DNA of 57,239 nt from Candidatus Magasanikiibacteriota bacterium (GTDB taxonomy: Bacteria > Patescibacteriota > Patescibacteriia > Magasanikbacterales > UBA922), in NCBI GenBank assembly GCA_003510435.1, contig DOMK01000006.1:1-57239 (forward strand). The letters run 5' to 3'. Below the pieces are notes generated by a model. That model saw only the letters and a program-made list of their open reading frames with translations. It was not told the DNA's origin and did no database searches. The position numbers and the translations under genes are program-made. Of the stretch, positions 24,664-57,239 are shown piece after piece. Positions within the stretch are counted from its first letter, which is position 1, and each line of letters starts with the position of its first letter.

Positions 24664-27063
24664 TTATTTTTTGTCCTTTTTCAACCCCACGTTAGATTGA
24701 CCAAAGTCAATCCCCTCTTGCCAGACAAACATCCCCCCAACCAGCTCTGGTTCTGATTTAAAAATCTGGTTTACTTTATCAAGATTACTACCTACAAATA
24801 ACTCACTTTTTTGTACAAACCAACATTTGTCAGCCTGGGTAAGGTCTTTCATGGTAATCAAGCTAGATACATCTGGATTAACAGTAAATTTGTCTAATAA
24901 TTCAACTCTTTCTTTTTGACCAAATTGATAATCTATAGGAAAGCCACCACCAACAATTCCACCAGATGACAATGCTTCTAGTGGCAACAAAATCCAAGTA
25001 TCTGCAAGAACACAAGGTTTAAGATCAGAAGATCGGAAGATCAAAAGATCATCACTAAATAATTGATCTTTTGATCTTTTGATCTTTTGGTCCTTTCCAT
25101 CCACCAATGAATCTACACTGCTAATATTACTCATTATATACTCTGCCACCCCATATTCATCAACACTAACCACCCGTATATCTGGTCCGGAAGCATAAGT
25201 GAAAGTAGTGAACCAACTAATACTTACAATAAACAACAAAACACCAATTTTACTCAAAATATTATTTTTATTTATGTTACACGTGATTAATGATAAGTGA
25301 TAAGTGATATACATTAAACCTTTAATCAATAAAATCAAAATCAACACTGCCAACACCCCATCTAACCGTCTAGTAAAAAGTTTATCTCCCTCCAAAACAA
25401 ACCAACCAATAATATAACCACCAAGGACAGTATAGAACAACAAATTAATGATCTTTGATCTTTGATCTTTGATCTTTGACATTTCAAAAACCCCGAACAT
25501 TATCAAACACCATACAATCACCATTGCCAATATTAACCACCACCGCCAAGTATTAAAAATACTACTAACAAAAGCTAAGTCTGGCGTATGATTAAATAAA
25601 AAATTTCCACTCAAAATATCATGGGGACGAATCATACTGGCATAAAACCAACCACTAAACTGGCCAATAAGCTGTTTAAAATTCTGCCACCAAGGAATTT
25701 GATCAGGAATAAAACTAACTTTGTTAATAATTTCTATAATTGGGATAATAAAAACACTGACCAGAGCAACTATTCCTAATAAAATTCTTCTAAACAAATT
25801 ATATGGGTTACCTATATTATTTGATAAGTGATAAGTGATAAGTGATAATATAATCACAAGCCAAATCAAAATAAAATACAACGAATAACTCCAAAGCATT
25901 AAAATACTAAAAAATATTACTAAATATTTCTGATACTTATTGCCATCGCGCAAATATTGTAACCACAACATGAGAGTAAACAAAAAGAAAAGCAAACCAA
26001 AACTAACTGGCAACGTGAGACTACCCAGTGCTTGAAGAGAAAATGGTAAAAATGATAACCAAGCTAGTAATAACCCCCTACGCCTTGTACCAAACAAAAT
26101 CCAACCCAACTTAAACATTATAAATGGAAAAACAATTGACCATAAAATTGGCATTAGCCATTTATTTACAGTGATTAAATTTGTCTGCAAAGTCTGAGCC
26201 AAAACCACACTACTACCCCACATCGCGCCATAAGAATATTTTTGTGGATTAAAAAAAACTTCAGGTAAATCAACTTTGGACACTTCGATCCAATTGGCTT
26301 CTGGACCAACTAAAACTGGCAAAACTGAATCTCCAGATAATAATTGTTCTTCTACCGCAATATGACGCCACACATCTCCACCCCAAGGCATTTGGTGCGA
26401 CATGGGCAAATATAGATGAAGTAAAATTGACTGTAACAAAAAAATCAATAAAATAACTTTGGTTTTATATTTGCTAAACAAAAATATTCCAGACAAAATT
26501 GTTAAAATAAAAAATACTAATAAATAGTATTGATTAATTGTTTGCCAAGGTAAATTTAAAACACTGGTACTTTCTGAACTGTACAATAAATAAAATCCGA
26601 CTAAGCACAGAACAAAATAAGCCAAAATCCAGAGAAAATGTCCAGTAAACAAAATAAAATCTTTATCAGTCTCCGCTTCTAGATTTTCTCGATTATTAGC
26701 CTTTTTTCTTTCAAAATACCAAGCCTGTAATAAACTAACTATAGCCACCGTTAGATAAAGAGCAAAGATAAATAAAATATCTAATTTATAAACCATTACA
26801 AAAATTGAACTGACTAGACTAAGTAAACTAAAAACCACAAACCAAGAAAAAACTGACGTTAACCAAGTTTTTTTCTTCAAACTAAATACTCGTTTTAAAC
26901 TATCTTGCCACCACTGTCCCACAATAATTAGATAAGACAAAAACAAAAACCAGCCTAAGTAGGTATAGTGCCAGCTGGTCAAATTAAAATACAACAAAAA
27001 CAGATTTACCAACAAAAAAAACAAATAAGTCTGTTTTTTGATAAAAGATTGGATTTTTAACAT
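24664..27063 (-). CDS. Large polytopic membrane protein (GT-C/PMT-like glycosyltransferase candidate)
   Basis: ~15+ predicted TM helices followed by a ~200-aa soluble C-terminal domain. The track start 27084 is TTG; ATG 27063 used. Contains in-frame AAAAGATC/GATCTTT and GATAAGT short tandem repeats. Confidence 0.4.
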   Translation of the reverse strand: MLKIQSFIKKQTYLFFLLVNLFLLYFNLTSWHYTYLGWFLFLSYLIIVGQWWQDSLKRVFSLKKKTWLTSVFSWFVVFSLLSLVSSIFVMVYKLDILFIFALYLTVAIVSLLQAWYFERKKANNRENLEAETDKDFILFTGHFLWILAYFVLCLVGFYLLYSSESTSVLNLPWQTINQYYLLVFFILTILSGIFLFSKYKTKVILLIFLLQSILLHLYLPMSHQMPWGGDVWRHIAVEEQLLSGDSVLPVLVGPEANWIEVSKVDLPEVFFNPQKYSYGAMWGSSVVLAQTLQTNLITVNKWLMPILWSIVFPFIMFKLGWILFGTRRRGLLLAWLSFLPFSLQALGSLTLPVSFGLLFFLFTLMLWLQYLRDGNKYQKYLVIFFSILMLWSYSLYFILIWLVIILSLITYHLSNNIGNPYNLFRRILLGIVALVSVFIIPIIEIINKVSFIPDQIPWWQNFKQLIGQFSGWFYASMIRPHDILSGNFLFNHTPDLAFVSSIFNTWRWWLILAMVIVWCLIMFGVFEMSKIKDQRSKIINLLFYTVLGGYIIGWFVLEGDKLFTRRLDGVLAVLILILLIKGLMYITYHLSLITCNINKNNILSKIGVLLFIVSISWFTTFTYASGPDIRVVSVDEYGVAEYIMSNISSVDSLVDGKDQKIKRSKDQLFSDDLLIFRSSDLKPCVLADTWILLPLEALSSGGIVGGGFPIDYQFGQKERVELLDKFTVNPDVSSLITMKDLTQADKCWFVQKSELFVGSNLDKVNQIFKSEPELVGGMFVWQEGIDFGQSNVGLKKDKK
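25021..25098. repeat. Inverted arrays of AAAAGATC / GATCTTTT octamers inside the membrane-protein gene
   Basis: aagatcagaagatcggaagatcaaaagatc…gatcttttgatcttttgatcttttggtcctttcc. Confidence 0.75.
25450..25477. repeat. Heptanucleotide SSR (GATCTTT)x4 inside the membrane-protein gene
   Basis: gatctttgatctttgatctttgatcttt. Confidence 0.8.
25823..25847. repeat. Heptanucleotide SSR (GATAAGT)x3-4 inside the membrane-protein gene; second short copy at 25291-25309
   Basis: gataagtgataagtgataagtgata. Confidence 0.75.
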
Positions 27064-27086
27064 AATTCTTGCTACAATACTCAAAT

Positions 27087-45000: not shown

Positions 45001-45040
45001 GTGGTCAGGTGGTCAGGTGGTCAGGTGGTCAGGTGGTCAG
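45001..45040. repeat. Octanucleotide tandem repeat (GTGGTCAG)x5 just downstream of the ftsL stop
   Basis: gtggtcaggtggtcaggtggtcaggtggtcaggtggtcag; preceded by attagtgattaagtgtttaagtgg. Confidence 0.8.
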
Positions 45041-45045
45041 GTGGT

Positions 45046-46343: not shown

Positions 46344-46417
46344 ACTTTAAATTCTCAATTTTCAATAACCAATTTTCAACTATTTGAAAATTGAAAATTC
46401 GTAAATTGAAAATTTAT

Positions 46418-46921: not shown

Positions 46922-47299
46922 TTAATTTACTAATCTCTTATATCTAATTCCATCAGGTGTGATTAAAATTATTATTCCCAATTTTTTATTAGTAGCTTTT
47001 AAATATGTAAGAACTTGTTTTATATGCATCGGATAAAAATCATCTGCTACTTTTAATTCTACTACAATTTTATTTTCTACCAAAAAATCTAATGAGTAAC
47101 TCCCAACTTTCTTACCTTTATGAGTGACTCTTACTTTGTGTTCACGTTCAAAACTAAAACATTTTTTTGTCAATTCATCAGCATAAGCACGCTGATAAAA
47201 CAATTCGTAATGTCCGTATTTTAAACTGTTATAAACTGCATAAGCACAACCAACCAACTCATAACATTCATCTTTGTAGATTAAATCAACCCCGTTCAT
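46922..47299 (-). CDS. GxxExxY family protein (PD-(D/E)XK nuclease superfamily)
   Basis: 125 aa; GCAYAVYNSLKYGHYELFYQRAY signature. Flanked by inverted ATTAGTG arrays. Confidence 0.75.
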   Translation of the reverse strand: MNGVDLIYKDECYELVGCAYAVYNSLKYGHYELFYQRAYADELTKKCFSFEREHKVRVTHKGKKVGSYSLDFLVENKIVVELKVADDFYPMHIKQVLTYLKATNKKLGIIILITPDGIRYKRLVN

Positions 47300-47309
47300 A
47301 TCTCACCAC

Positions 47310-47392
47310 ATTAGTATAGGTTAGTGCTAAGATTAGTAGCTTCCAAATTATTCACACAATCACATTAGTGCAGATTAGTGTTAAGATTAGTG
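47310..47392 (+). promoter_or_regulatory. Two ATTAGTR x3 arrays upstream of GxxExxY gene 2, oriented towards the downstream + strand
   Basis: attagta/gttagtg/attagta (47310-47338) and attagtg/attagtg/attagtg (47364-47392). Confidence 0.55.
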
Positions 47393-47646
47393 GTATTCCC
47401 CATAAATCCCCACGTACTACCATTATACCCCACTTACACTACCTTTGCAACCCCAAAACCCCACTTATCCACAGCGTAAAGCTCCCTTCGGTCGCTACGT
47501 TGTAGACAGTCCTTCGCCCTCTGGACTACGGACTGTAAACTCTTATTTATTAAAAAAATAAATGACACCTCATTTTATAAATTTTTTGACAGAGTTAATT
47601 TTAAATAGTAATATTAATATATATAATTTTTAATTAAATATTCTAT

Positions 47647-47832
47647 ATGCAAAATGAAAGATGTGCTCGGGTAGTTCCAAGACAAGATGGTAAAAATAAA
47701 AAATGTGCCCATGGATCAGAAATAGGATGCAAAGAATGTCATAGAGCACACCCAGAAATATTAAAAAAAATTGACCCTAAATACAAAAATGAACCACCAA
47801 TTATGAGAGAAAGCGATCCATTTGAAGATTAA
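47647..47832 (+). CDS. Small Cys/His-rich (zinc-ribbon-like) hypothetical protein, 61 aa
   Basis: C-x13-C-x7-C-x2-C-H pattern. ATG start. Hairpin+T-run terminator at 47845-47877. Confidence 0.35.
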   Translation: MQNERCARVVPRQDGKNKKCAHGSEIGCKECHRAHPEILKKIDPKYKNEPPIMRESDPFED

Positions 47833-47877: not shown

Positions 47878-47985
47878 AAAAAAATTGTGTACAAGGAATT
47901 GACATTTAAAAAAAAATACGCTAGTGTATTTATAAGTTCGAAGTCAACCGCCATTCGTCAACCTCAAGAAAAAAAGGAGGGCACC

Positions 47986-48300
47986 ATGCCCGACCCCGCC
48001 GAAGTGACTGCTGTCGCCGTCGTACCCGAGCCGTTCGTGGCTCGTCACCCCGGGATCCTCGACCCCTGCGAATGTGGTGCCCCGCAGACGGTCCGCTCGT
48101 CGACGAGCGTGACCTACAAGTGCGGCCGCATCGACTCGACCGATCCCGCGAAGCAGGCCAGCGTCCCGTGCCCGAACGCGCCCGAGGCCGTCGAGGCCGA
48201 GCCCGTGAGCCTGGACGTCGCCGCCGACGCCCCCGTGCCCGAGCCCGTCGCCGCGCCCGTGGTCGAAGCGCCTGTGGTCGAAGCCGCGCCTGCCGCGTAG
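47986..48300 (+). CDS. Hypothetical protein (104 aa) in a ~68% GC island; Cys cluster then Pro/Ala/Val/Glu-rich tail
   Basis: Perfect SD AAGGAGG (47974-47980) 5 nt before the ATG. TTGACA (47899-47904)-N17-TAGTGT (47922-47927) promoter-like signal. Hairpin terminator at 48505-48532. The track ORF 47887 starts at GTG upstream. Confidence 0.45.
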   Translation: MPDPAEVTAVAVVPEPFVARHPGILDPCECGAPQTVRSSTSVTYKCGRIDSTDPAKQASVPCPNAPEAVEAEPVSLDVAADAPVPEPVAAPVVEAPVVEAAPAA

Positions 48301-48504
48301 CTGAAGGCCGAGGGAATTGGACCGACCGTCCTGCAGGAGGTTGGTCCAACGAGACAAAAATGCAGACGGAGGATACTTGGCGGTTGACTTGTGTCTGCAG
48401 GAATGGGGGGAGACGATGGATCGGGAGGGTCTATCGTCATTCGAGGCCGACAATTGTCTGCCTCCGTTCTTATGAAAATCAAATTTGGTTTTTAGAGGAA
48501 TATA

Positions 48505-48549: not shown

Positions 48550-49950
48550 TCAATTTCTTTTCAATTTCCGTAATGATCTCTGATATGTAATCGCAAATCT
48601 ATGAGCTTCATCTCTCACTTGGATTAACAAATTTTGATTTTCTTTTACCCATTCGGTAAATTCTCTTTTTTTATCAGTGGAATCTTTTCCAAAATCAGTG
48701 AAATCAATGTGGAATTCATTCTTTTTTCTATCCGGACCTTTAGCAATTCCCACAACGGGAATTTTAAATTTATTTGTTCTAATAATTTCCACGGCCTTAT
48801 TTACTTGCGAGACTCCCCCATCTACCAAAATTACATCAGGCAATTTCCAAATATCACCACTTTCTACTTTCAACTTTCTACTTTCAACTTGAGGAGCATG
48901 GCGCAGCCTGCGACGAATCACTTCTGCCATACAATCAACGTCACTTTGCCCTATTACAGTTTTTATTTTAAATTTTCTATATTGTGATTTGTTTGGATAA
49001 CCATTTTCAAATACCACCATACTACCAACCATACCAGTTGAACCAAGATTAGAAATATCATAACCTTCTATTCGAAGTTCTGAGTTCTGAGTTCTGAGTT
49101 CTGAGTTCTCCTGTAAAAAACTTTTATTCAACAAAGCAATGTCTTGTATTTTTTGTAAATTTTTTATTTGATCACGCAATCTTCCAGCTTCCTCAAACTC
49201 ATGAATTTTAGAAGACAATTTCATTTTCTTTTCCAAATCACGAATCAAACCTTTTTTATTACCACGCAAAAATTTTACTAATGGATTAATTACTTTCTTT
49301 TTATATTCAGACGAACTTATTTCCCCAGTACACACACCCAAACATTGTCCCATTTGACGATATAGACAAGGCTTACAAAGCTTACCAAGCTCACAAGGCT
49401 TACAATGTGATATATAAAATAATTTTCTTAAAAGTCCCATCATCTCGCGTGTTTTTAATCCTGGATACGGTCCAAAAATATGTTGAAACTGTTGTAATTG
49501 TTCTAGTTGTTGTAAATGTCTTTCACTTACAACATTTTTAACATCTACAACATTTGGAACATTACCAAGCTCATGCGCTCTAATCGTCTTAACTTGAGGG
49601 AAAACATCTTTTGTAATACAAATATAATTCCAACTCTTATCATCTTTCAAATCCACGTTATACTTTGGTTGATATTTTTTAATTGTATTCGCTTCCAAAA
49701 TAATCGCTTCCAAAACCGAATCAGTTTGTTTTATTTTTATATCCACCACCTCGTCGATCATAGCTTCGATAGGTCGCAATCCCCCTCCCTTTTTAAGGGA
49801 GGGCTGGGGTGGGTTCCGAAAATAACTCCTAACCCTGCTCTTCAAACTTGTCGCTTTACCAATATAAATCAACTCTTTCTGTTTATTATAGAAGAGATAA
49901 ATACCTGGTTCGTTGGGAAATGATTTGATTTTTTTTTCTAAATTAGCCAT
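48550..49950 (-). CDS. uvrC: Excinuclease ABC subunit C (short form lacking C-terminal HhH domain)
   Basis: GIY-YIG N-terminus (GIYLFYNKQKELIYIGKATSLKSRVRSYF), Cys-rich region, UvrC endonuclease core (…VRDEAHRFAITYQR…). Only 466 aa. Contains a heptanucleotide SSR and two small in-frame repeat insertions. Confidence 0.85.
   Translation of the reverse strand: MANLEKKIKSFPNEPGIYLFYNKQKELIYIGKATSLKSRVRSYFRNPPQPSLKKGGGLRPIEAMIDEVVDIKIKQTDSVLEAIILEANTIKKYQPKYNVDLKDDKSWNYICITKDVFPQVKTIRAHELGNVPNVVDVKNVVSERHLQQLEQLQQFQHIFGPYPGLKTREMMGLLRKLFYISHCKPCELGKLCKPCLYRQMGQCLGVCTGEISSSEYKKKVINPLVKFLRGNKKGLIRDLEKKMKLSSKIHEFEEAGRLRDQIKNLQKIQDIALLNKSFLQENSELRTQNSELRIEGYDISNLGSTGMVGSMVVFENGYPNKSQYRKFKIKTVIGQSDVDCMAEVIRRRLRHAPQVESRKLKVESGDIWKLPDVILVDGGVSQVNKAVEIIRTNKFKIPVVGIAKGPDRKKNEFHIDFTDFGKDSTDKKREFTEWVKENQNLLIQVRDEAHRFAITYQRSLRKLKRN
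48672..48709 (+). repeat. 38-bp AATCAGTGRAATC element, copy 4, in frame inside uvrC
   Basis: tatcagtggaatcttttccaaaatcagtgaaatcaatg; encodes HIDFTDFGKDSTDK on the minus strand. Confidence 0.7.
49076..49110. repeat. Heptanucleotide SSR (AGTTCTG)x5 inside uvrC (in frame as ELRTQNS repeats)
   Basis: agttctgagttctgagttctgagttctgagttctc. Confidence 0.85.
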
Positions 49951-50071: not shown

Positions 50072-52822
50072 CAATATTTTCTTTAAATATTGTCCTGTAT
50101 AACTATACCCAATTTTTGCCACAGTCTCTGGTGTTCCCACACAAACCACTTCTCCCCCTTTATCTCCGCCTTCGGGACCAAGATCAATAATCCAATCCGC
50201 GCATTTTATTACATCTAGATTGTGTTCAATCACCATTACTGTATTACCTTTGGAAACCAATTCTTGTAACACCCCAATTAATTTTTTTACATCTTCATAA
50301 TGCAAACCAGTCGTTGGCTCATCCAACAAAAACAAAGTCTTGGTTGTGCTAGGCTTGGCCAATTCGCGAGATAATTTTATTCGCTGGGCTTCACCACCTG
50401 ACAAAGTCTTGGCCGATTGACCAAGAGTAAGATAATCCAAACCCACTTCATTTAGAACTTTTAGTTTATCATAAATAAAAGGAATGTCTTCAAAAAAACT
50501 TTCGGCTTCTTCAATGGTCATATTCAAAACATCAGAAATATTTTTTTCTTTATAATGAATTTGCAAAGTTTCATTATTAAATCTTTTACCTTTACACACA
50601 TCACACACAATTTCTACACTGGGCAAAAAATGCATTTCAATTTCTAATGTTCCTCTACCCTCACAATTATCACATCTACCTCCCGGACGATTGAAACTAA
50701 ACCGGCCATTTTTGTAACCACGCATTTTGGCTTCGGGGGTGGAGGCATACAAATCGCGAATATGAGTCCAGGTACCAGTATAAGTCGCTGGATTGGAACG
50801 AGGTGATCGACCAATGGCGCTCTGGTCAATCTTAATGATTTTATCAATATATTCTGTATTTAAGACTTGTTTATGATCACCAACTTTTTTCTTTTTTTCT
50901 TCTGGTGCATGACCATGATAGTTTAATCTATTTGATACTGTTCGATATAAAATATCATGCATCAGAGTAGATTTGCCCGAACCAGACACGCCCGTGAGGC
51001 AAACAAATCGACGTAAAGGAATTTCTACATTAATATTTTTCAAATTGTGTTCACTCGCCCCTTTAATTTTTATTTTCGCGGTTGTATTATCCACCTTTCT
51101 TCTCTTTTCTGGTGCTTCAATATTTTTCTCTCGACGCAAATATTGTCCAGTCAAAGATTTTTTTGGATCACCAATTTTTAAACAATTTTTAAGTTCATCC
51201 TGAATGAGTCCAACAGGACGAATGAAGGATCTTTCGGAGCCAACATTTATCAAACTACTAATATTTTTTGTACCGCCATAGACTTTTCCTTCGAAAGATC
51301 CTTCACCCATTCGCTGTTGCTCAGGGTTCAGGATGAACTGTAAAGGTCCAGAATAGACTATCTCCCCACCATGCGTCCCCGCCCCTGGTCCAATATCCAC
51401 AATCCAATCACTAGCTAAAATTGTATCTTCATCATGTTCTACCACAATAATCGTATTACCCACGTCACACAAATTGCGTAAAGTCCGTACCAATTGATCA
51501 TTGTCTTTTTGATGTAAACCAATCGTCGGTTCATCCAACACATACAAAGCACCCACTAATTTTGTCCCCACTTGCGAAGCCAAACGAATGCGTTGGGCTT
51601 CTCCACCAGACAGAGTACCAGCCGTGCGATTGAGAGTCAGATAATGCAACCCAACATCATACATAAACTGCAATCTATTTTCTATTTCACGCAATACAGC
51701 TCCGGCAATTTCCTGTTCTCTCTCGGGCAAATTTAAAATTACCTCAGCAAAAAATTCACGTACCTCACCAATATCCATACTTACTACTTCCCAAATATTT
51801 TTGCCAAAGATCTTTACACTTAATGCATTGGCATTCAATCTTTTGCCCTCACACTTTGGACATACATCCTCACTAAACAAAGACTTGGTACCAAGACCAG
51901 TGCAATAATCACAATAACCATACGGACTGTTAAAACTAAACAATCTAGGTTCAATCTCTGGAAAACTAAAACCATCCTTTGGACAAGAATATTCTGTAGA
52001 AAAAATTTGTTCCCGACTTCGCTGAAGCTTCGTCGGGCAAGCTTCATCATTAGGATAAATCACAGTACAAAGTCCATTGGACAAATCCACGGCTGTTTCT
52101 ACTGCTTCAGCCAAACGCTTTTCTCCGTCACTATTCTGAATTCTAAAATCTGAAATCTGCAATTTGTCAATCACCACTTCAATCGTATGCTTCTTATCTT
52201 TACTAAGTTCAATTCTATTTTTCAAACTCTTCATTTTTCCATCTACTCGCACTTCCAAAAATCCAGAATTATAAACATCATAGAGCATTTGGTAATATTC
52301 CCCTTTTCTACCACGTACAACCGGCGCCAAAATTATCAACTCGTGGTTCGTAGTTCGTAATTTCGTATTTTTCGTAGTTCGTATCTTATTTACTGACTCC
52401 ATTATTCTTTCCTGCATTTGGTCAATCGTCATCTTCTCTATTTTTGTATTACAAAGTGGACAGTGAGGTTCACCAATTCGTGCAAACAAAACTCGTAAAT
52501 AATCATAAATTTCCGTAATCGTAGCTACAGTGGAACGTGGATTGGCACTATGCGCTTTTTGATCAATCGAAATCGCTGGCGACAAACCTTCAATCTCATC
52601 CACATCAGGTTTTTGCATCCCACCCAAAAATTGTCGCGCATAAGCTGACAAAGATTCTATATACCGACGTTGTCCTTCAGCAAAAATGGTATCAAAAGCT
52701 AGGCTCGATTTTCCCGAACCTGATAAACCTGTAAACACAATCATTTTGTTGCGTGGCAATTCAAGAGAAATGTTTTTTAGATTGTGTTCTCTAGCACCAC
52801 GGATTATTATTTTTTCTTGCAT
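50069..52822 (-). CDS. uvrA: Excinuclease ABC subunit A
   Basis: Two ABC ATPase modules ([14 protein letters not shown]; [10 protein letters not shown]), zinc-finger Cys pairs, 917 aa. Confidence 0.95.
52346..52386. repeat. TTCGTA-type short repeats in frame in uvrA (encode [12 protein letters not shown])
   Basis: ggttcgtagttcgtaatttcgtatttttcgtagttcgtatc. Confidence 0.7.
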
Positions 52823-55256: not shown

Positions 55257-57239
55257 TTACTTCTTCATTTTTCTAAGCTCTTTTAACTCATCTCTAAGTA
55301 TAGCTGCTAGTTCAAACTGCAAATCTTTGGCTGCCTCCCGCATTTTTTCTTCTTTATCTTTAATAATTTCCTCAATTGGCCTGCTATCACCAAGTAAATC
55401 CAATTCAACTGTTTTATTTTTCGTAGTTCGTGTTTTCGTATCTTTCGTATTTCGTATTCCAAATTCTTCCAAAATATTTTTTATGGTTTTTTGTATGGTA
55501 CGCGGAGTAATATTATGTTTTTTATTATATGCCAATTGAATCTTGCGCCGACGATCAGTTTCTTTAATCGCTTTTGCAATTGACTTTGTAATATTGTCAG
55601 CATACATCACAACCTGACCATTGACATTTCTGGCTGCTCGACCAATCGTCTGGATCAAACTAATTTCATTACGCAAAAAGCCTTCTTTGTCTGCATCCAA
55701 AATGGCCACCAGAGATACTTCTGGAATATCCAAGCCTTCACGCAATAAATTGACACCAACAATTACATCAATTTCTCCCCGACGCAATTTGGTAATAATA
55801 TCCACTCGTTCAATTGTTTTGATATCACTATGTAAATATAATGTTTTTATTTTTTTCTCTTTCAAATAATCATTCAAATCTTCAGACATTTTCTTTGTCA
55901 GTGTCGTCACCAAAACCCGCTCTTTATTTTTTATCCGCTCTTCAATTCTAATTATTAAATCTTCTACTTGAGATAAATTTTCCTTTCGTAATTTCGTACC
56001 TTTCGTATTTCGTATCCCTGTTATTGGTCTAATCACCACCTCTGGATCAATCAAACCAGTTGGACGAACTACTTGTTCTACTATCTTGTCACTAGATTTA
56101 ATTTCAAATTCACTTGGTGTAGCTGAAACATAAATCGTCTGATTAACTCTCTTTTCAAATTCTTTAAAATTTAACGGCCGATTATCACGTGCGCTTGGCA
56201 ATCTAAAACCATGTTCTACCAAAGTATCTTTGCGTGATTTGTCTCCGGCATACATTCCACCAATTTGAGGTACTGTGACGTGGGATTCATCTATAACTGT
56301 TAGGTAGTTCATTCCGATCCGCCGATGAGGCGGAGAGGAATCCCTTTTTGAAACAATATCATTTGCATTAAAAATATCTTTATTTAATTTGATTTCCATT
56401 GCATTAGAAAGGGATCTCTCGGCTTCGCCTCGAGATGACGCCAAAAAATAATCCAACAATGTATATGGTGGCTCCCCTGCCATTCGTCCATCAAAATGTC
56501 GAGAATAATTTTCTATACCATTGCAATAGCCAATATTTTTTATCATTTCCAAATCATATTTTACTCTCCGTTTCAAACGTTCGTATTCCAAAACTTTTCC
56601 TTGTTTTTTAAATAATTCTAATTGTGATTTTAATTCTTCTTTGATTGTTTTGAAAGCTCGTTCGCGCATTTCTGGACTAGCCACATAGTGTTTGGCTGGA
56701 AATAGCCACATATCATTGCTTTCTACTTTTACTTTTCTAGTCAATGCATCTAATACCTCTATAATCTCTATACCCTCTCCTATTTCTAATCTATATATTA
56801 CTTCTTCGTTTACTGGCATTACTTCAAACACTTGTCCGCGTAACCGAAAAGTTCCCCGTTTCAAATCAGAATTCGTGCGTTCAAATTGCATAGCAATTAA
56901 TTGCGCCAACAAATCTTCACGATTTAATATTTGCCCTTTTTCCAAATGCAAAACAATTTTTTCATATTCTTCTGGTGAACCAAGACCGTAGATGCAAGAG
57001 ACTGAAGCGACGATAATAACATCTTGACGAGTCAAAAGTGCTTGGGTACAAGCATGACGCAGGCGATCAATCTCTTCATTTATTTGCGCTTCTTTTTCTA
57101 TATAAGTATCACTACCCGGCATGTAAGCCTCAGGTTGATAATAATCATAATATGACACAAAATATTCTACGGCATTCTCAGGAAAAAATTCTCTAAATTC
57201 ATTACACAGTTGCGCAGCCAAAGTTTTATTATGAGCAAT
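55257..57239 (-). CDS. uvrB: Excinuclease ABC subunit B, N-terminus beyond the window end
   Basis: Helicase motifs (DESHVTVPQIGGMYAGD…), C-terminal UVR domain (…AAKDLQFELAAILRDEL…). Carries a 135-bp in-frame repeat-element insertion just before the DESH motif and two TTCGTA-repeat insertions. Confidence 0.9.
   Translation of the reverse strand: MAHNKTLAAQLCNEFREFFPENAVEYFVSYYDYYQPEAYMPGSDTYIEKEAQINEEIDRLRHACTQALLTRQDVIIVASVSCIYGLGSPEEYEKIVLHLEKGQILNREDLLAQLIAMQFERTNSDLKRGTFRLRGQVFEVMPVNEEVIYRLEIGEGIEIIEVLDALTRKVKVESNDMWLFPAKHYVASPEMRERAFKTIKEELKSQLELFKKQGKVLEYERLKRRVKYDLEMIKNIGYCNGIENYSRHFDGRMAGEPPYTLLDYFLASSRGEAERSLSNAMEIKLNKDIFNANDIVSKRDSSPPHRRIGMNYLTVIDESHVTVPQIGGMYAGDKSRKDTLVEHGFRLPSARDNRPLNFKEFEKRVNQTIYVSATPSEFEIKSSDKIVEQVVRPTGLIDPEVVIRPITGIRNTKGTKLRKENLSQVEDLIIRIEERIKNKERVLVTTLTKKMSEDLNDYLKEKKIKTLYLHSDIKTIERVDIITKLRRGEIDVIVGVNLLREGLDIPEVSLVAILDADKEGFLRNEISLIQTIGRAARNVNGQVVMYADNITKSIAKAIKETDRRRKIQLAYNKKHNITPRTIQKTIKNILEEFGIRNTKDTKTRTTKNKTVELDLLGDSRPIEEIIKDKEEKMREAAKDLQFELAAILRDELKELRKMKK
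55419..55458. repeat. TTCGTA-type short repeats in frame in the uvrB C-terminal linker (encode RNTKDTKTRTTKN)
   Basis: tttcgtagttcgtgttttcgtatctttcgtatttcgtatt. Confidence 0.7.
55984..56016. repeat. TTCGTA-type short repeats in frame in uvrB (encode IRNTKGTKLRKEN)
   Basis: tttcgtaatttcgtacctttcgtatttcgtatc. Confidence 0.7.
56309..56443. repeat. Family-A element, complete copy, inserted in frame (135 bp, 45 aa) in uvrB
   Basis: Left arm cattccgatCCGCCgatgagGCGGagaggaatcccttttt. Right arm agaaagggatctctcggcttcgcctcgagatgacgcc. Encodes ASSRGEAERSLSNAMEIKLNKDIFNANDIVSKRDSSPPHRRIGMN between YTLLDYFL and YLTVIDESH. Confidence 0.85.

What the first reader, a model, noticed from the sequence alone, without database searches (positions are those of the whole stretch)
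49076..49110. Heptanucleotide SSR inside uvrC: potential slipped-strand on/off switch for nucleotide excision repair
(AGTTCTG)x5 lies within the uvrC reading frame. It encodes ELRTQNS repeats in a linker between the GIY-YIG/Cys region and the endonuclease core. Gain or loss of a single 7-bp unit would frameshift uvrC. SSR-controlled repair genes act as mutator contingency loci in other host-associated bacteria. The same genome segment has 7- and 8-bp SSRs in a surface membrane protein (25450-25477; 25823-25847; 25021-25098) and downstream of ftsL (45001-45040). Slippage-prone repeats therefore seem to be a general feature.
Basis: partly seen in the sequence, partly recalled or inferred. Interest (0 to 1): 0.6.

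Follow-up and report, generated by a model that had tools for sequence, protein, structure and literature searches.

The report
Slippage-prone 7-base repeat inside uvrC
A perfect five-unit 7-base repeat sits in frame in a flexible linker of the DNA-repair gene uvrC of a groundwater Magasanikbacterium; it is one of many such repeats in this bacterial group, and losing one unit does knock out uvrC in a sister species, but nothing shows that this is a purpose-built switch.

Summary
(AGTTCTG)x4.9 at 49076-49109 is perfect and far beyond chance. It lies in frame in a short-form uvrC (48550-49950, minus strand) and encodes NSELRTQNSELR. That peptide sits in the low-confidence linker between the UVR and RNase H-like endonuclease domains. 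A change of one or two units gives a stop within a few codons.

The repeat is not special to uvrC. Arrays of 7-8 nt are a feature of the whole Candidatus Magasanikbacteria group. They are about ten times denser in intergenic DNA than in genes in this window. Inside genes they are always in frame and sit in variable loops of uvrA, uvrB, uvrC, rsmH and glycosyltransferases.

The same five-unit array is kept in three other species, in one with mostly synonymous decay. All 81 fetched orthologues are in one frame.

One sister species does show slippage. One contig is identical to the others over 1,475 nt except that one heptamer unit is missing at the same linker, which splits uvrC. Another species carries a plain nonsense allele of uvrC.

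My reading: this is a slippage-capable by-product of a lineage-wide 7-nt duplication bias. It can switch uvrC off by accident. An evolved contingency switch is unproven, and read-level data for this organism are still needed.

The parts
49076..49109 (-). Focal heptanucleotide array: AGTTCTG x4.9 on the + strand, AACTCAG x4 + AACTTCG on the coding strand. It encodes NSELRTQNSELR (aa 282-293).
   Evidence: 100% matches, TRF score 68. 0 of 40 shuffles give any period-7 array.
48550..49950 (-). Short-form uvrC, 466 aa. GIY-YIG is at 49657-49908, UVR at 49150-49251 and the RNase H-like endonuclease domain at 48589-49098. No C-terminal helix-hairpin-helix domain was detected.
   Evidence: Pfam. About 8,000 homologues; the named top hits are mostly Candidatus Magasanikbacteria, 403-534 aa. 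Invariant catalytic-region columns.
49084..49140 (-). Linker 1 between the UVR and endonuclease domains (aa 271-289). It has low model confidence and is hypervariable in length (14-36 aa) among orthologues. It is a hot spot for 7/8-nt arrays and GC-rich palindromes.
   Evidence: AlphaFold2 pLDDT <50 for residues 271-289. Alignment A1. Linker survey.
48859..48890 (-). Second array in uvrC: ACTTTCT/ACTTTCA, period 7/14, x4.6/2.3. It encodes VESRKLKVESG in linker 2, after RRLRH. It forms part of a 14-aa insertion relative to the closest relative, L167.
49480..49562 (-). Inverted pair of 9-nt arrays (TGTTGTAAT / TTACAACAT) inside uvrC at variable site A, before FGPYPG. Arms are 39 nt and 74% complementary. 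The region is in frame and has low pLDDT (aa 132-151).
52341..52383 (-). Heptanucleotide array in uvrA (TCGTAGT-like x5.7, [13 protein letters not shown]). The closest relative, L167, has a different heptamer array (GTCAAAA) at the same site.
52135..52163 (-). Heptanucleotide array in uvrA (TCTGAAA x4.1, [13 protein letters not shown]) at an indel-rich loop.
55982..56014 (-). 7/8/16-nt array in uvrB (GIRNTKGTKLRKE). It coincides with an 8-aa insertion relative to L167. A second array lies at 55419-55458.
45001..45045 (-). Intergenic array of the same class: GTGGTCAG x5.6, placed directly after the stop codon of the ftsL-position gene and before its terminator hairpin.
25021..25092 (-). Inverted pair of 8-nt arrays (AAGATCAG x3.9 / TTGATCTT x3.4) inside ORF 24664-27084. 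The same ORF carries heptamer arrays at 25283-25309, 25449-25479 and 25822-25848.
   Evidence: The ORF has no Pfam family.

Best explanation
What it is. The array is a genuine, recently homogenised heptanucleotide tandem repeat. It now forms part of the coding sequence for a flexible spacer between the UvrB-binding UVR domain and the RNase H-like 5'-incision domain of a short-form UvrC. The organism is a groundwater Candidatus Magasanikbacterium (Patescibacteria/CPR).

How it arose. It was produced by a lineage-wide mutational bias that writes tracts of about 30-35 nt made of 7-8-nt tandem repeats all over these genomes. Selection removes the tracts from most coding sequence. They survive only where they keep the reading frame and fall in loops that tolerate insertions. 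The three variable linkers of uvrC are such places.

What it can do. Because the unit is 7 nt, a slip of one or two units truncates UvrC just after the UVR domain (shown by arithmetic). That would leave a half-protein like Cho, a UvrC homologue that makes only the 3' incision, and would abolish the 5' incision and hence normal excision repair (inferred from UvrC domain knowledge). Such a slip occurs in nature at the orthologous array of a sister species (shown).

How I read it. The locus can behave as an accidental, probably reversible, off switch. The evidence fits a tolerated mutational hazard in a gene under weak selection in dark groundwater better than a selected contingency locus.
For: Repeat and domain placement:
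- Repeat, frame and domains.
- The linker has low model confidence, pLDDT <50 for residues 271-289.
- The linker is hypervariable, 14-36 aa among orthologues.

Genome- and clade-wide excess of period 7/8:
- The window has 10 period-7 arrays against 0 in shuffles.
- In 474 kb of Magasanik-like loci, perfect period-7 runs number 61 against 6.6 expected and period-8 runs 14 against 2. Periods 4-5 are at expectation.
- Period-7 arrays occur at 7.2 per 100 kb in these loci against 1.0 in loci of other phyla.
- Units are diverse, with no shared motif.

Signs of a selection filter:
- Array density in the window is 2.05/kb in intergenic DNA, 0.49/kb in the excision-repair genes and 0.22/kb in other coding sequence.
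- All arrays wholly inside ORFs are in frame.
- Several coincide with or adjoin indels relative to the closest relative L167.

Hot spots in uvrC:
- In 78 orthologues, arrays with different units recur at the same three sites.
- Density in uvrC is 0.44/kb against 0.06/kb in neighbouring ORFs.

Evidence of slippage activity:
- L171 and L083 are identical over 1,475 nt except for one AAATTCG unit, which splits uvrC. The intact allele is on 14 contigs.
- Unit variants are fixed across whole arrays at site A (AATTTCA, AATTCAA, AATTTCC).
- Window and L169 share 10 of 10 codons in the array, against 57% elsewhere in the gene (p = 0.004).
- Strains L088 and L089, 99.8% identical, differ by a 3-unit indel in an intergenic array.

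Evidence against a dedicated switch:
- The five-unit array is conserved in L162, L164 and L169 and decays synonymously in two of them.
- All 81 fetched orthologues are in a single frame.
- Another species carries a nonsense allele of uvrC, E367*.
Against: - No read-level or strain-level data exist for this organism. All contigs carrying this exact gene that could be traced come from one groundwater dataset, so the instability of this particular array is inferred by analogy.
- The 7-fold excess of arrays in uvrC, at a density close to that of intergenic DNA, is more than a simple picture of 'neutral junk in loops' predicts. It could reflect selection for mutable tracts. However, the counts are not phylogenetically independent.
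- Many arrays are perfect despite deep species divergence. This needs ongoing homogenisation, whose mechanism is unknown.
- The cause of the preference for 7 nt is unexplained.
Confidence: 0.6

Rival explanations
1. Evolved contingency (mutator) switch. Selection maintains the heptamer tract because reversible frameshifting of uvrC, and perhaps of uvrA and uvrB, creates subpopulations without excision repair and with higher mutation rates or a different response to damage.
For: - The unit is not a multiple of 3 and the tract is perfect. A change of one unit gives an immediate stop.
- A natural allele lacking one unit occurs in an otherwise identical sister-species sequence.
- uvrC is 7-fold richer in arrays than neighbouring genes.
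- Arrays are kept perfect in many lineages.
- All three excision-repair genes carry arrays.
Against: - The tract has only about 5 units.
- The unit number is invariant across 4 species and all available contigs.
- The array decays by synonymous changes in L162 and L164, as ordinary coding sequence does.
- The closest relative has an 8-nt array of the same total length at this site.
- 81 of 81 fetched consensus orthologues are intact.
- Identical array types occur in rsmH, ribD and glycosyltransferases, and are denser still in intergenic DNA.
- A uvrC knockout also arises by a point nonsense mutation.
Confidence: 0.2
2. Static structural peptide. The repeat is an old duplication that now simply encodes a conserved linker peptide (NSELRTxNSELR). 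It has no meaningfully elevated instability, and its perfect DNA repeat in this genome is a coincidence of descent.
For: - The peptide and its length are conserved in three other species.
- Against L162 the differences are five synonymous and one conservative change.
- No length variants are seen for this array.
Against: - Codon identity with L169 is 10 of 10 in the array against 57% elsewhere (p = 0.004), which argues for DNA-level homogenisation.
- The orthologous array in the sister species has slipped by one unit.
- The closest relative has replaced the peptide entirely.
- The region has low model confidence.
Confidence: 0.17
3. Sequencing or assembly artefact, or a chance repeat.
For: None found.
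Against: - An independent assembly is identical.
- Orthologous arrays exist in other species from other studies.
- 0 of 40 shuffles give a period-7 array.
Confidence: 0.01

Closest known systems
SSR-mediated phase variation (contingency loci), e.g. tetra- and heptanucleotide tracts of Haemophilus influenzae (PMC2651432)
   Same: A tandem repeat whose unit is not a multiple of 3 sits inside an ORF. Gain or loss of one unit by slipped-strand mispairing frameshifts the gene. A natural allele differing by one unit exists at the orthologous tract of a sister species.
   Different: - The tract is short, about 5 units, against 8-38 for the H. influenzae heptamer loci or candidates.
- It lies mid-gene in an interdomain linker of a housekeeping repair enzyme, not in a surface or restriction-modification gene.
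- The unit number is conserved across species.
- It is one of dozens of similar arrays spread over ordinary genes and intergenic DNA.
Tandem-repeat 'genetic switches' in mismatch-repair genes (6-bp repeat in Salmonella mutL; PMC2955026)
   Same: The copy number of a short tandem repeat inside a DNA-repair gene converts it between functional and defective alleles by slippage.
   Different: - There the change is in frame (a 6-bp deletion allele) and was shown experimentally to modulate mutability.
- Here the change would be a frameshift in excision repair, and no phenotype or rate has been measured.
Over-represented heptameric SSRs in bacteria: GGGNATC in Xanthomonas and Nostoc (PMC4692102), TAACTGA in Beggiatoaceae and cyanobacteria (PMC4679880), cyanobacterial STRR heptamers
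   Same: Genome-wide excess specifically of 7-nt tandem repeats, with copy numbers typically 2-6 and a preference for four, and higher density in intergenic DNA.
   Different: - Those systems have one dominant motif per genome, are largely excluded from coding regions, and are proposed to act as G-quadruplexes or protein-binding sites.
- Here the units are diverse, AT-rich and without a shared motif. About half the arrays lie in frame inside genes.
Rickettsia palindromic elements and other MITE-like insertions inside protein-coding genes (own knowledge: Ogata et al. 2000; surfaced in the MITE-review search hit PMC10969869, not read)
   Same: Selfish or junk DNA is tolerated in frame in surface loops of housekeeping proteins. 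The same uvrC linkers also hold GC-rich palindromes in relatives.
   Different: RPEs are dispersed copies of defined 100-150-bp elements. The arrays here appear to be locally generated tandem repeats of about 30-35 nt with no shared sequence.
Cho (UvrC-homologue nuclease; own knowledge)
   Same: The predicted frameshift product (GIY-YIG plus UVR, about 291-299 aa) has the architecture of a UvrC N-terminal half that makes only the 3' incision.
   Different: Cho is a dedicated, SOS-regulated gene. Here the half-protein would be an accidental truncation, and its activity is untested.

Membership tests
SSR contingency locus (phase-variable gene) | A repeat unit that is not a multiple of 3 lies within the ORF (or promoter), so that unit changes alter expression. 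| tested here: met
   The 7-nt unit lies in the ORF. In silico changes of one or two units give stops after a few codons, and three units keep the frame.
SSR contingency locus (phase-variable gene) | A long, hypermutable tract, typically many units. | tested here: not met
   The tract has 4.9 units. H. influenzae heptamer loci or candidates have 8-38 units (PMC2651432). No array inside an ORF exceeds about 5.7 copies in the window or the uvrC orthologues surveyed.
SSR contingency locus (phase-variable gene) | Unit-number polymorphism, including off alleles, among strains or within populations. | tested here: inconclusive
   - This array shows no variants on any available contig, and there are five units in 4 species.
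- The orthologous array in a sister species has one allele lacking a unit, against 14 intact contigs.
SSR contingency locus (phase-variable gene) | Association with genes whose stochastic switching is adaptive, and enrichment of SSRs in such genes rather than genome-wide. | tested here: not met
   Arrays occur in uvrA, uvrB, uvrC, rsmH, ribD and glycosyltransferases, and are about ten times denser in intergenic DNA. However, uvrC is 7-fold richer than neighbouring ORFs across the clade.
UvrC (excinuclease ABC subunit C) | N-terminal GIY-YIG nuclease domain. | tested here: met
   PF01541, E = 5e-9, aa 15-98.
UvrC (excinuclease ABC subunit C) | UVR (UvrB-interacting) motif. | tested here: met
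   PF02151, E = 1e-7, aa 234-267.
UvrC (excinuclease ABC subunit C) | RNase H-like 5'-endonuclease domain. | tested here: met
   PF08459, E = 2e-41, aa 285-454. The DEAHRFA motif is invariant in the alignment.
UvrC (excinuclease ABC subunit C) | C-terminal tandem helix-hairpin-helix DNA-binding domain (present in E. coli and T. maritima UvrC; own knowledge). | tested here: not met
   The protein ends 12 residues after the endonuclease domain, and Pfam finds no HhH family at E <= 0.01. The top-listed homologues (mostly Candidatus Magasanikbacteria where named, mostly about 400-500 aa) carry only the same four families. It is therefore a short-form UvrC.
Motif-specific heptamer repeat systems (GGGNATC, TAACTGA, STRR) | One dominant heptamer motif per genome. 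| tested here: not met
   18 different canonical units occur among 23 perfect coding arrays.
Motif-specific heptamer repeat systems (GGGNATC, TAACTGA, STRR) | Genome-wide over-representation specifically of period 7. | tested here: met

The most novel reading that the evidence does not exclude
Magasanikbacteria have a lineage-specific mechanism that writes and homogenises short tracts of 7-8-nt repeats. Selection has co-opted these tracts in the excision-repair genes, above all at three linkers of uvrC, as reversible frameshift switches. Groundwater populations would then continuously shed and regain repair-deficient (mutator or Cho-like) subpopulations. This would be the first contingency system described in the Candidate Phyla Radiation, and one that acts on DNA repair rather than on surface structures.
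Probability: 0.15. Interest if true: 0.7.

Novelty: new variant of a known kind. Interest (0 to 1): 0.5.

Why it matters
Phase variation and local hypermutation are well studied in host-adapted pathogens. My literature searches found no description of them in uncultivated CPR/Patescibacteria.

This locus shows three things:
- One CPR lineage carries an unusual, strong excess of 7-8-nt tandem arrays.
- These arrays sit in frame inside core repair enzymes.
- A single-unit slip does inactivate uvrC in a natural population.

Even if it is not adaptive, this is a concrete, measurable source of loss-of-function heterogeneity in excision repair in reduced genomes. It also gives a handle on the still-unknown mechanism behind the 7-nt bias. 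If it is adaptive, it would be a new class of mutator switch.

There is a practical point for annotation as well. Such arrays explain many odd low-complexity inserts, split genes and contig breaks in CPR metagenome-assembled genomes.

Tried and rejected
- Rfam and tRNA scans of the window found nothing, so the repeat is not part of a known RNA.
- The metagenome-contig scan for strain variants returned nothing closer than 68% identity, so no direct population comparison for this species was possible. The genome-contig scan returned mostly other phyla, which I used as a control.
- I proposed that each coding array is an original copy plus exactly three added units (+7 aa). I rejected this. Array-bearing linker-1 versions are only 2-5 aa longer than the shortest linkers, and the closest relative has an 8-nt array of identical total length. 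Arrays therefore replace linker sequence rather than simply adding to it.
- I looked for a shared motif or binding site among the units and rejected the idea, because the units are diverse.
- I looked for an inverted partner of the focal array, which would suggest a hairpin element. None exists, although other arrays do have partners.
- Enrichment of arrays in the excision-repair genes within the window alone is not significant (p = 0.19).
- Truncated homologues: P0127 consists of contig ends inside the linker. P0137 stops after the linker for an unclear reason. P0124 is a uvrC/uvrB chimera joined at a GC-rich palindrome. None of these is usable as an off allele.
- Literature searches for heptanucleotide or tandem repeats in CPR/Patescibacteria/Magasanikbacteria found no relevant papers.
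Full report
OBSERVATION. Bases 49076-49109 are (AGTTCTG)x4.9 with 100% matches (TRF score 68). They lie in the minus-strand ORF 48550-49950 (466 aa). Pfam identifies this ORF as UvrC, with GIY-YIG at aa 15-98, UVR at 234-267 and UvrC_RNaseH_dom at 285-454. No C-terminal helix-hairpin-helix domain is found. On the coding strand the tract reads AACTCAG x4 + AACTTCG and encodes N282-SELRTQNSEL-R293, directly before the conserved RIEGYDISN start of the endonuclease domain. The exact protein and an identical 11.4-kb stretch occur in an independent assembly of a groundwater metagenome (SRR2177986). NCBI names the organism a Candidatus Magasanikbacteria bacterium.

MORE THAN CHANCE, AND NOT ALONE. 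In 40 third-order Markov shuffles of the window no period-7 array reached TRF score 40. The real sequence has 10, plus 6 of period 14, 4 of period 8, 3 of period 16 and 7 of period 9, and none of periods 1-6 or 10. The only perfect repeats with >=3 copies and period >=5 are heptamers and octamers.

The same excess holds across the clade. Over 474 kb of non-redundant Magasanik-like loci, perfect period-7 runs number 61 against 6.6 expected, and period-8 runs 14 against 2. Periods 4-5 sit at expectation. TRF period-7 arrays occur at 7.2 per 100 kb in these loci against 1.0 in loci from other phyla and 0.8 in their low-GC subset. For scale, H. influenzae Rd has no heptanucleotide SSR with >=3 units in 1.8 Mb (PMC2651432). 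Units are diverse, with 18 canonical units among 23 perfect coding arrays. They are A-rich on the sense strand and share no motif.

WHERE THE ARRAYS SIT. In the window, arrays of period 7/8/14/16 occur at 2.05/kb in intergenic DNA, 0.49/kb in uvrA/B/C and 0.22/kb in other coding sequence. Every array that lies wholly inside an ORF is in frame in an intact ORF. Hosts are uvrC (two, plus an inverted pair of 9-mers), uvrA (two), uvrB (two), rsmH, ribD, three glycosyltransferases, and an 806-aa ORF without a Pfam family (five arrays).

Comparison with the closest relative, L167, is informative. L167 is syntenic, with 83-96% aa identity in neighbouring genes and 74-78% in UvrC. Several window arrays coincide with or adjoin indels between the two genomes. 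At some sites both genomes carry arrays with different units: in uvrA, ACGAACT-type against GTCAAAA. The picture is a mutational process acting everywhere, filtered by selection to frame-preserving events in tolerant loops.

THE uvrC LINKERS ARE HOT SPOTS. An AlphaFold2 model built on 34 homologues gives pLDDT <50 for residues 271-289 (linker 1) and 132-151 (site A). Confidence is reduced around 350-370 (linker 2). In 78 orthologous uvrC genes, heptamer or octamer arrays with many different units, 3.4-5.3 copies and always in frame recur at exactly these three places. Linker 1 ranges from 14 to 36 aa. The shortest versions lack arrays, versions of 17-20 aa mostly contain them, and the longest contain GC-rich palindromes. 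Across 62 non-redundant loci, uvrC carries 0.44 arrays/kb, against 0.06 in other ORFs, 0.13 in uvrA and 0.52 in intergenic DNA. These counts are not phylogenetically independent.

IS THIS ARRAY A SWITCH? EVIDENCE AGAINST.
- The same array, at the same place and with the same five units, is present in three other species with 73-75% UvrC identity: L162/P0005, L164/P0006 and L169/P0012.
- Against L162 and L164 the array differs by five synonymous changes and one conservative change (Q to K). Its codon identity (6 of 11) equals that of the rest of the gene (56%). There it evolves as ordinary constrained coding sequence.
- No unit-number variant of this array was seen. The evidence is the identical L001 contig, the report of four contigs encoding the exact protein (one place shown, three similar places not shown), and 2-3 contigs for each orthologue.
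- All 81 fetched Magasanik-like uvrC loci are in a single frame.
- The tract is short, and identical array types populate unrelated housekeeping genes.

EVIDENCE FOR SLIPPAGE.
- In silico, changes of one or two units give stops after a few codons. The products are 291-299 aa and lack the endonuclease domain. Changes of three units keep the frame.
- A search with the N-terminal half found P0121, a 278-aa protein ending ...KFEIRNSNFQE. Its contig L171 (ENA ERZ27254744) is 100% identical over all 1,475 nt to L083, except that one AAATTCG unit is missing from the linker-1 array (3.3 against 4.3 units). The ORF stops at a TAG created by the shift, and the endonuclease half continues in another frame.
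- The intact allele (P0188) is on 14 contigs from several datasets, including the sample that yielded this window. Among 10 contigs of this near-clonal species, with no more than 4 SNPs in 4.3 kb, this is one of only two clean indels.
- At site A, orthologous arrays of equal length differ by a substitution present in every unit (AATTTCA in L097, AATTCAA in L106, L110 and L164, AATTTCC in L169). This indicates concerted evolution.
- Window and L169 share 10 of 10 codons in the array, against 57% elsewhere in the gene (p = 0.004).
- Strains L088 and L089 (9 SNPs in 5 kb) differ by a 21-nt, three-unit indel in an 11-unit intergenic heptamer array downstream of the ftsL-like gene.

These arrays do slip on short evolutionary timescales.

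CALIBRATION. A second natural uvrC loss-of-function allele has nothing to do with repeats. L184 differs from L087 by 2 SNPs in 2,852 nt, and one of them is GAA to TAA (E367*), upstream of the DEAHRFA motif. Knockouts of uvrC thus segregate in these groundwater populations by more than one route. This fits weak selection on excision repair and removes the need for a dedicated switch to explain L171.

MECHANISM (shown and inferred).
- Shown: the array, its frame, the consequences of unit changes, its conservation, the excess across the clade, and one natural single-unit contraction at the orthologous tract.
- Inferred from established knowledge of UvrC: the GIY-YIG half makes the 3' incision and the RNase H-like half makes the 5' incision. 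A truncated product would therefore be Cho-like, and excision repair would be lost.
- Inferred: slipped-strand mispairing is the process behind the unit changes, and the change is reversible.
- Unknown: why 7-8 nt is favoured, why arrays stop at about 35 nt inside genes, and why many occur as inverted pairs.

COMPARISON WITH KNOWN SYSTEMS. The locus works like an SSR frameshift locus. It fails two of the four defining features of contingency loci that I tested (tract length and gene-specific enrichment), and a third (polymorphism) is inconclusive. It resembles the over-representation of heptameric SSRs reported for many bacteria (PMC4692102; PMC4679880). It differs in having no dominant motif and in residing in frame inside genes. 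The tolerance of junk in loops of housekeeping proteins recalls Rickettsia palindromic elements. The tandem-repeat switches in Salmonella mismatch-repair genes (PMC2955026) are the nearest precedent for a repeat-controlled repair gene. I found no paper on such repeats in CPR bacteria.

VERDICT. Best explanation (confidence about 0.6): an in-frame, slippage-capable by-product of a lineage-wide 7-8-nt tandem-duplication bias, sitting in a permissive interdomain linker. It can switch uvrC off accidentally, and in a sister species it has. An evolved mutator switch gets about 0.2, and a static structural peptide about 0.17. Novelty: a new variant of a known kind. Interest: 0.5.

Noticed in passing
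window 47887-48450 (GC 68-79% at 48000-48300); also L083 4592-4915, L100/L102 4789-5130, L169 1817-2113, L164 3561-3944: - A 400-600-bp high-GC island lies directly downstream of uvrC in a 34%-GC genome.
- It holds a small ORF convergent to uvrC, with GC3 of 0.87-0.95 in four of the five species (0.60 in L164) and an acidic Ala/Pro/Glu/Val-rich tail.
- An ORF of the same kind occupies the same position, between uvrC and mraZ, in several species.
- These ORFs show no detectable sequence similarity to each other. The window copy has no Pfam or Rfam hit.
- L100 and L102, 99.9% identical, differ by a 51-nt indel inside the island's GC-rich repeat.
   Followed up: partly
window 49783-49803 (uvrC N-terminus) and 52012-52037 (uvrA): - Small GC-rich perfect hairpins are inserted in frame in genes.
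- One is CCCTCCCTTAAAAAGGGAGGG, encoding PSLKKGGG. The other is CCCGAC...GTCGGG, encoding [10 protein letters not shown].
- Both lie at positions where the closest relative L167 differs: the uvrA hairpin is absent there, and the uvrC segment is replaced by unrelated sequence 3 aa shorter.
- Orthologues carry other GC-rich palindromes in uvrC linker 1: L084, L096/L105, L100, L136, L139 and L143.
   Followed up: partly
window 25021-25092; 46346-46416; 1105-1192; 49480-49562: Tandem arrays often come as inverted pairs, that is, hairpin arms built of 7-9-nt repeats. This is seen both in intergenic DNA and in frame inside ORFs, including uvrC site A. L092 and L095 show the same in uvrC linker 1. 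It suggests template switching rather than simple slippage.
   Followed up: partly
L173, L174, L175 (protein P0127), last 20 nt: Three contigs from three assemblies all end at the same base inside uvrC linker 1 (...GACGACGGACGACA). This is probably an assembly break at a variable or long array.
   Followed up: no
P0124 (436 aa): A chimeric protein with a UvrC N-terminal half joined to a UvrB C-terminal part. The junction is at the GC-rich palindrome-encoded peptide VKTSPAGTASSQSTSPNRRG, also found in uvrC of L096 and L105. The cause is either misassembly or recombination through a dispersed element.
   Followed up: no
L184 2599 (vs L087): A natural nonsense allele of uvrC, GAA to TAA (E367*). 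The strain is otherwise 99.93% identical to L087.
   Followed up: yes
L182, at the position matching L176 3657: A 7-nt deletion (CGGTCCC) that is not in a repeat truncates the mraZ gene call in one contig of the near-clonal sister species. It is the only other clean indel in that population, and it is also 7 nt long.
   Followed up: no
L088 6941-7019 vs L089: An 11-unit AATTAAC-type intergenic array lies downstream of the ftsL-like gene, the same position as window 45001-45045. It differs by exactly three units (21 nt) between strains that are 99.8% identical.
   Followed up: yes
window 46922-47832: A PD-(D/E)XK_3 nuclease gene (46922-47299) and a 61-aa Cys-rich ORF (47647-47832) lie between uvrC and mraZ. 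No such genes are called in the shorter (about 650-bp) spacer of the closest relative L167.
   Followed up: no
window 48550-49950 and homologues: UvrC here and in the listed homologues (mostly Candidatus Magasanikbacteria where named) is a short form of about 400-530 aa. It ends right after the RNase H-like domain and has no helix-hairpin-helix domain. Matches of similar length (about 1.2-1.3 kb) occur in Omnitrophota, Planctomycetota and Verrucomicrobiota loci.
   Followed up: partly
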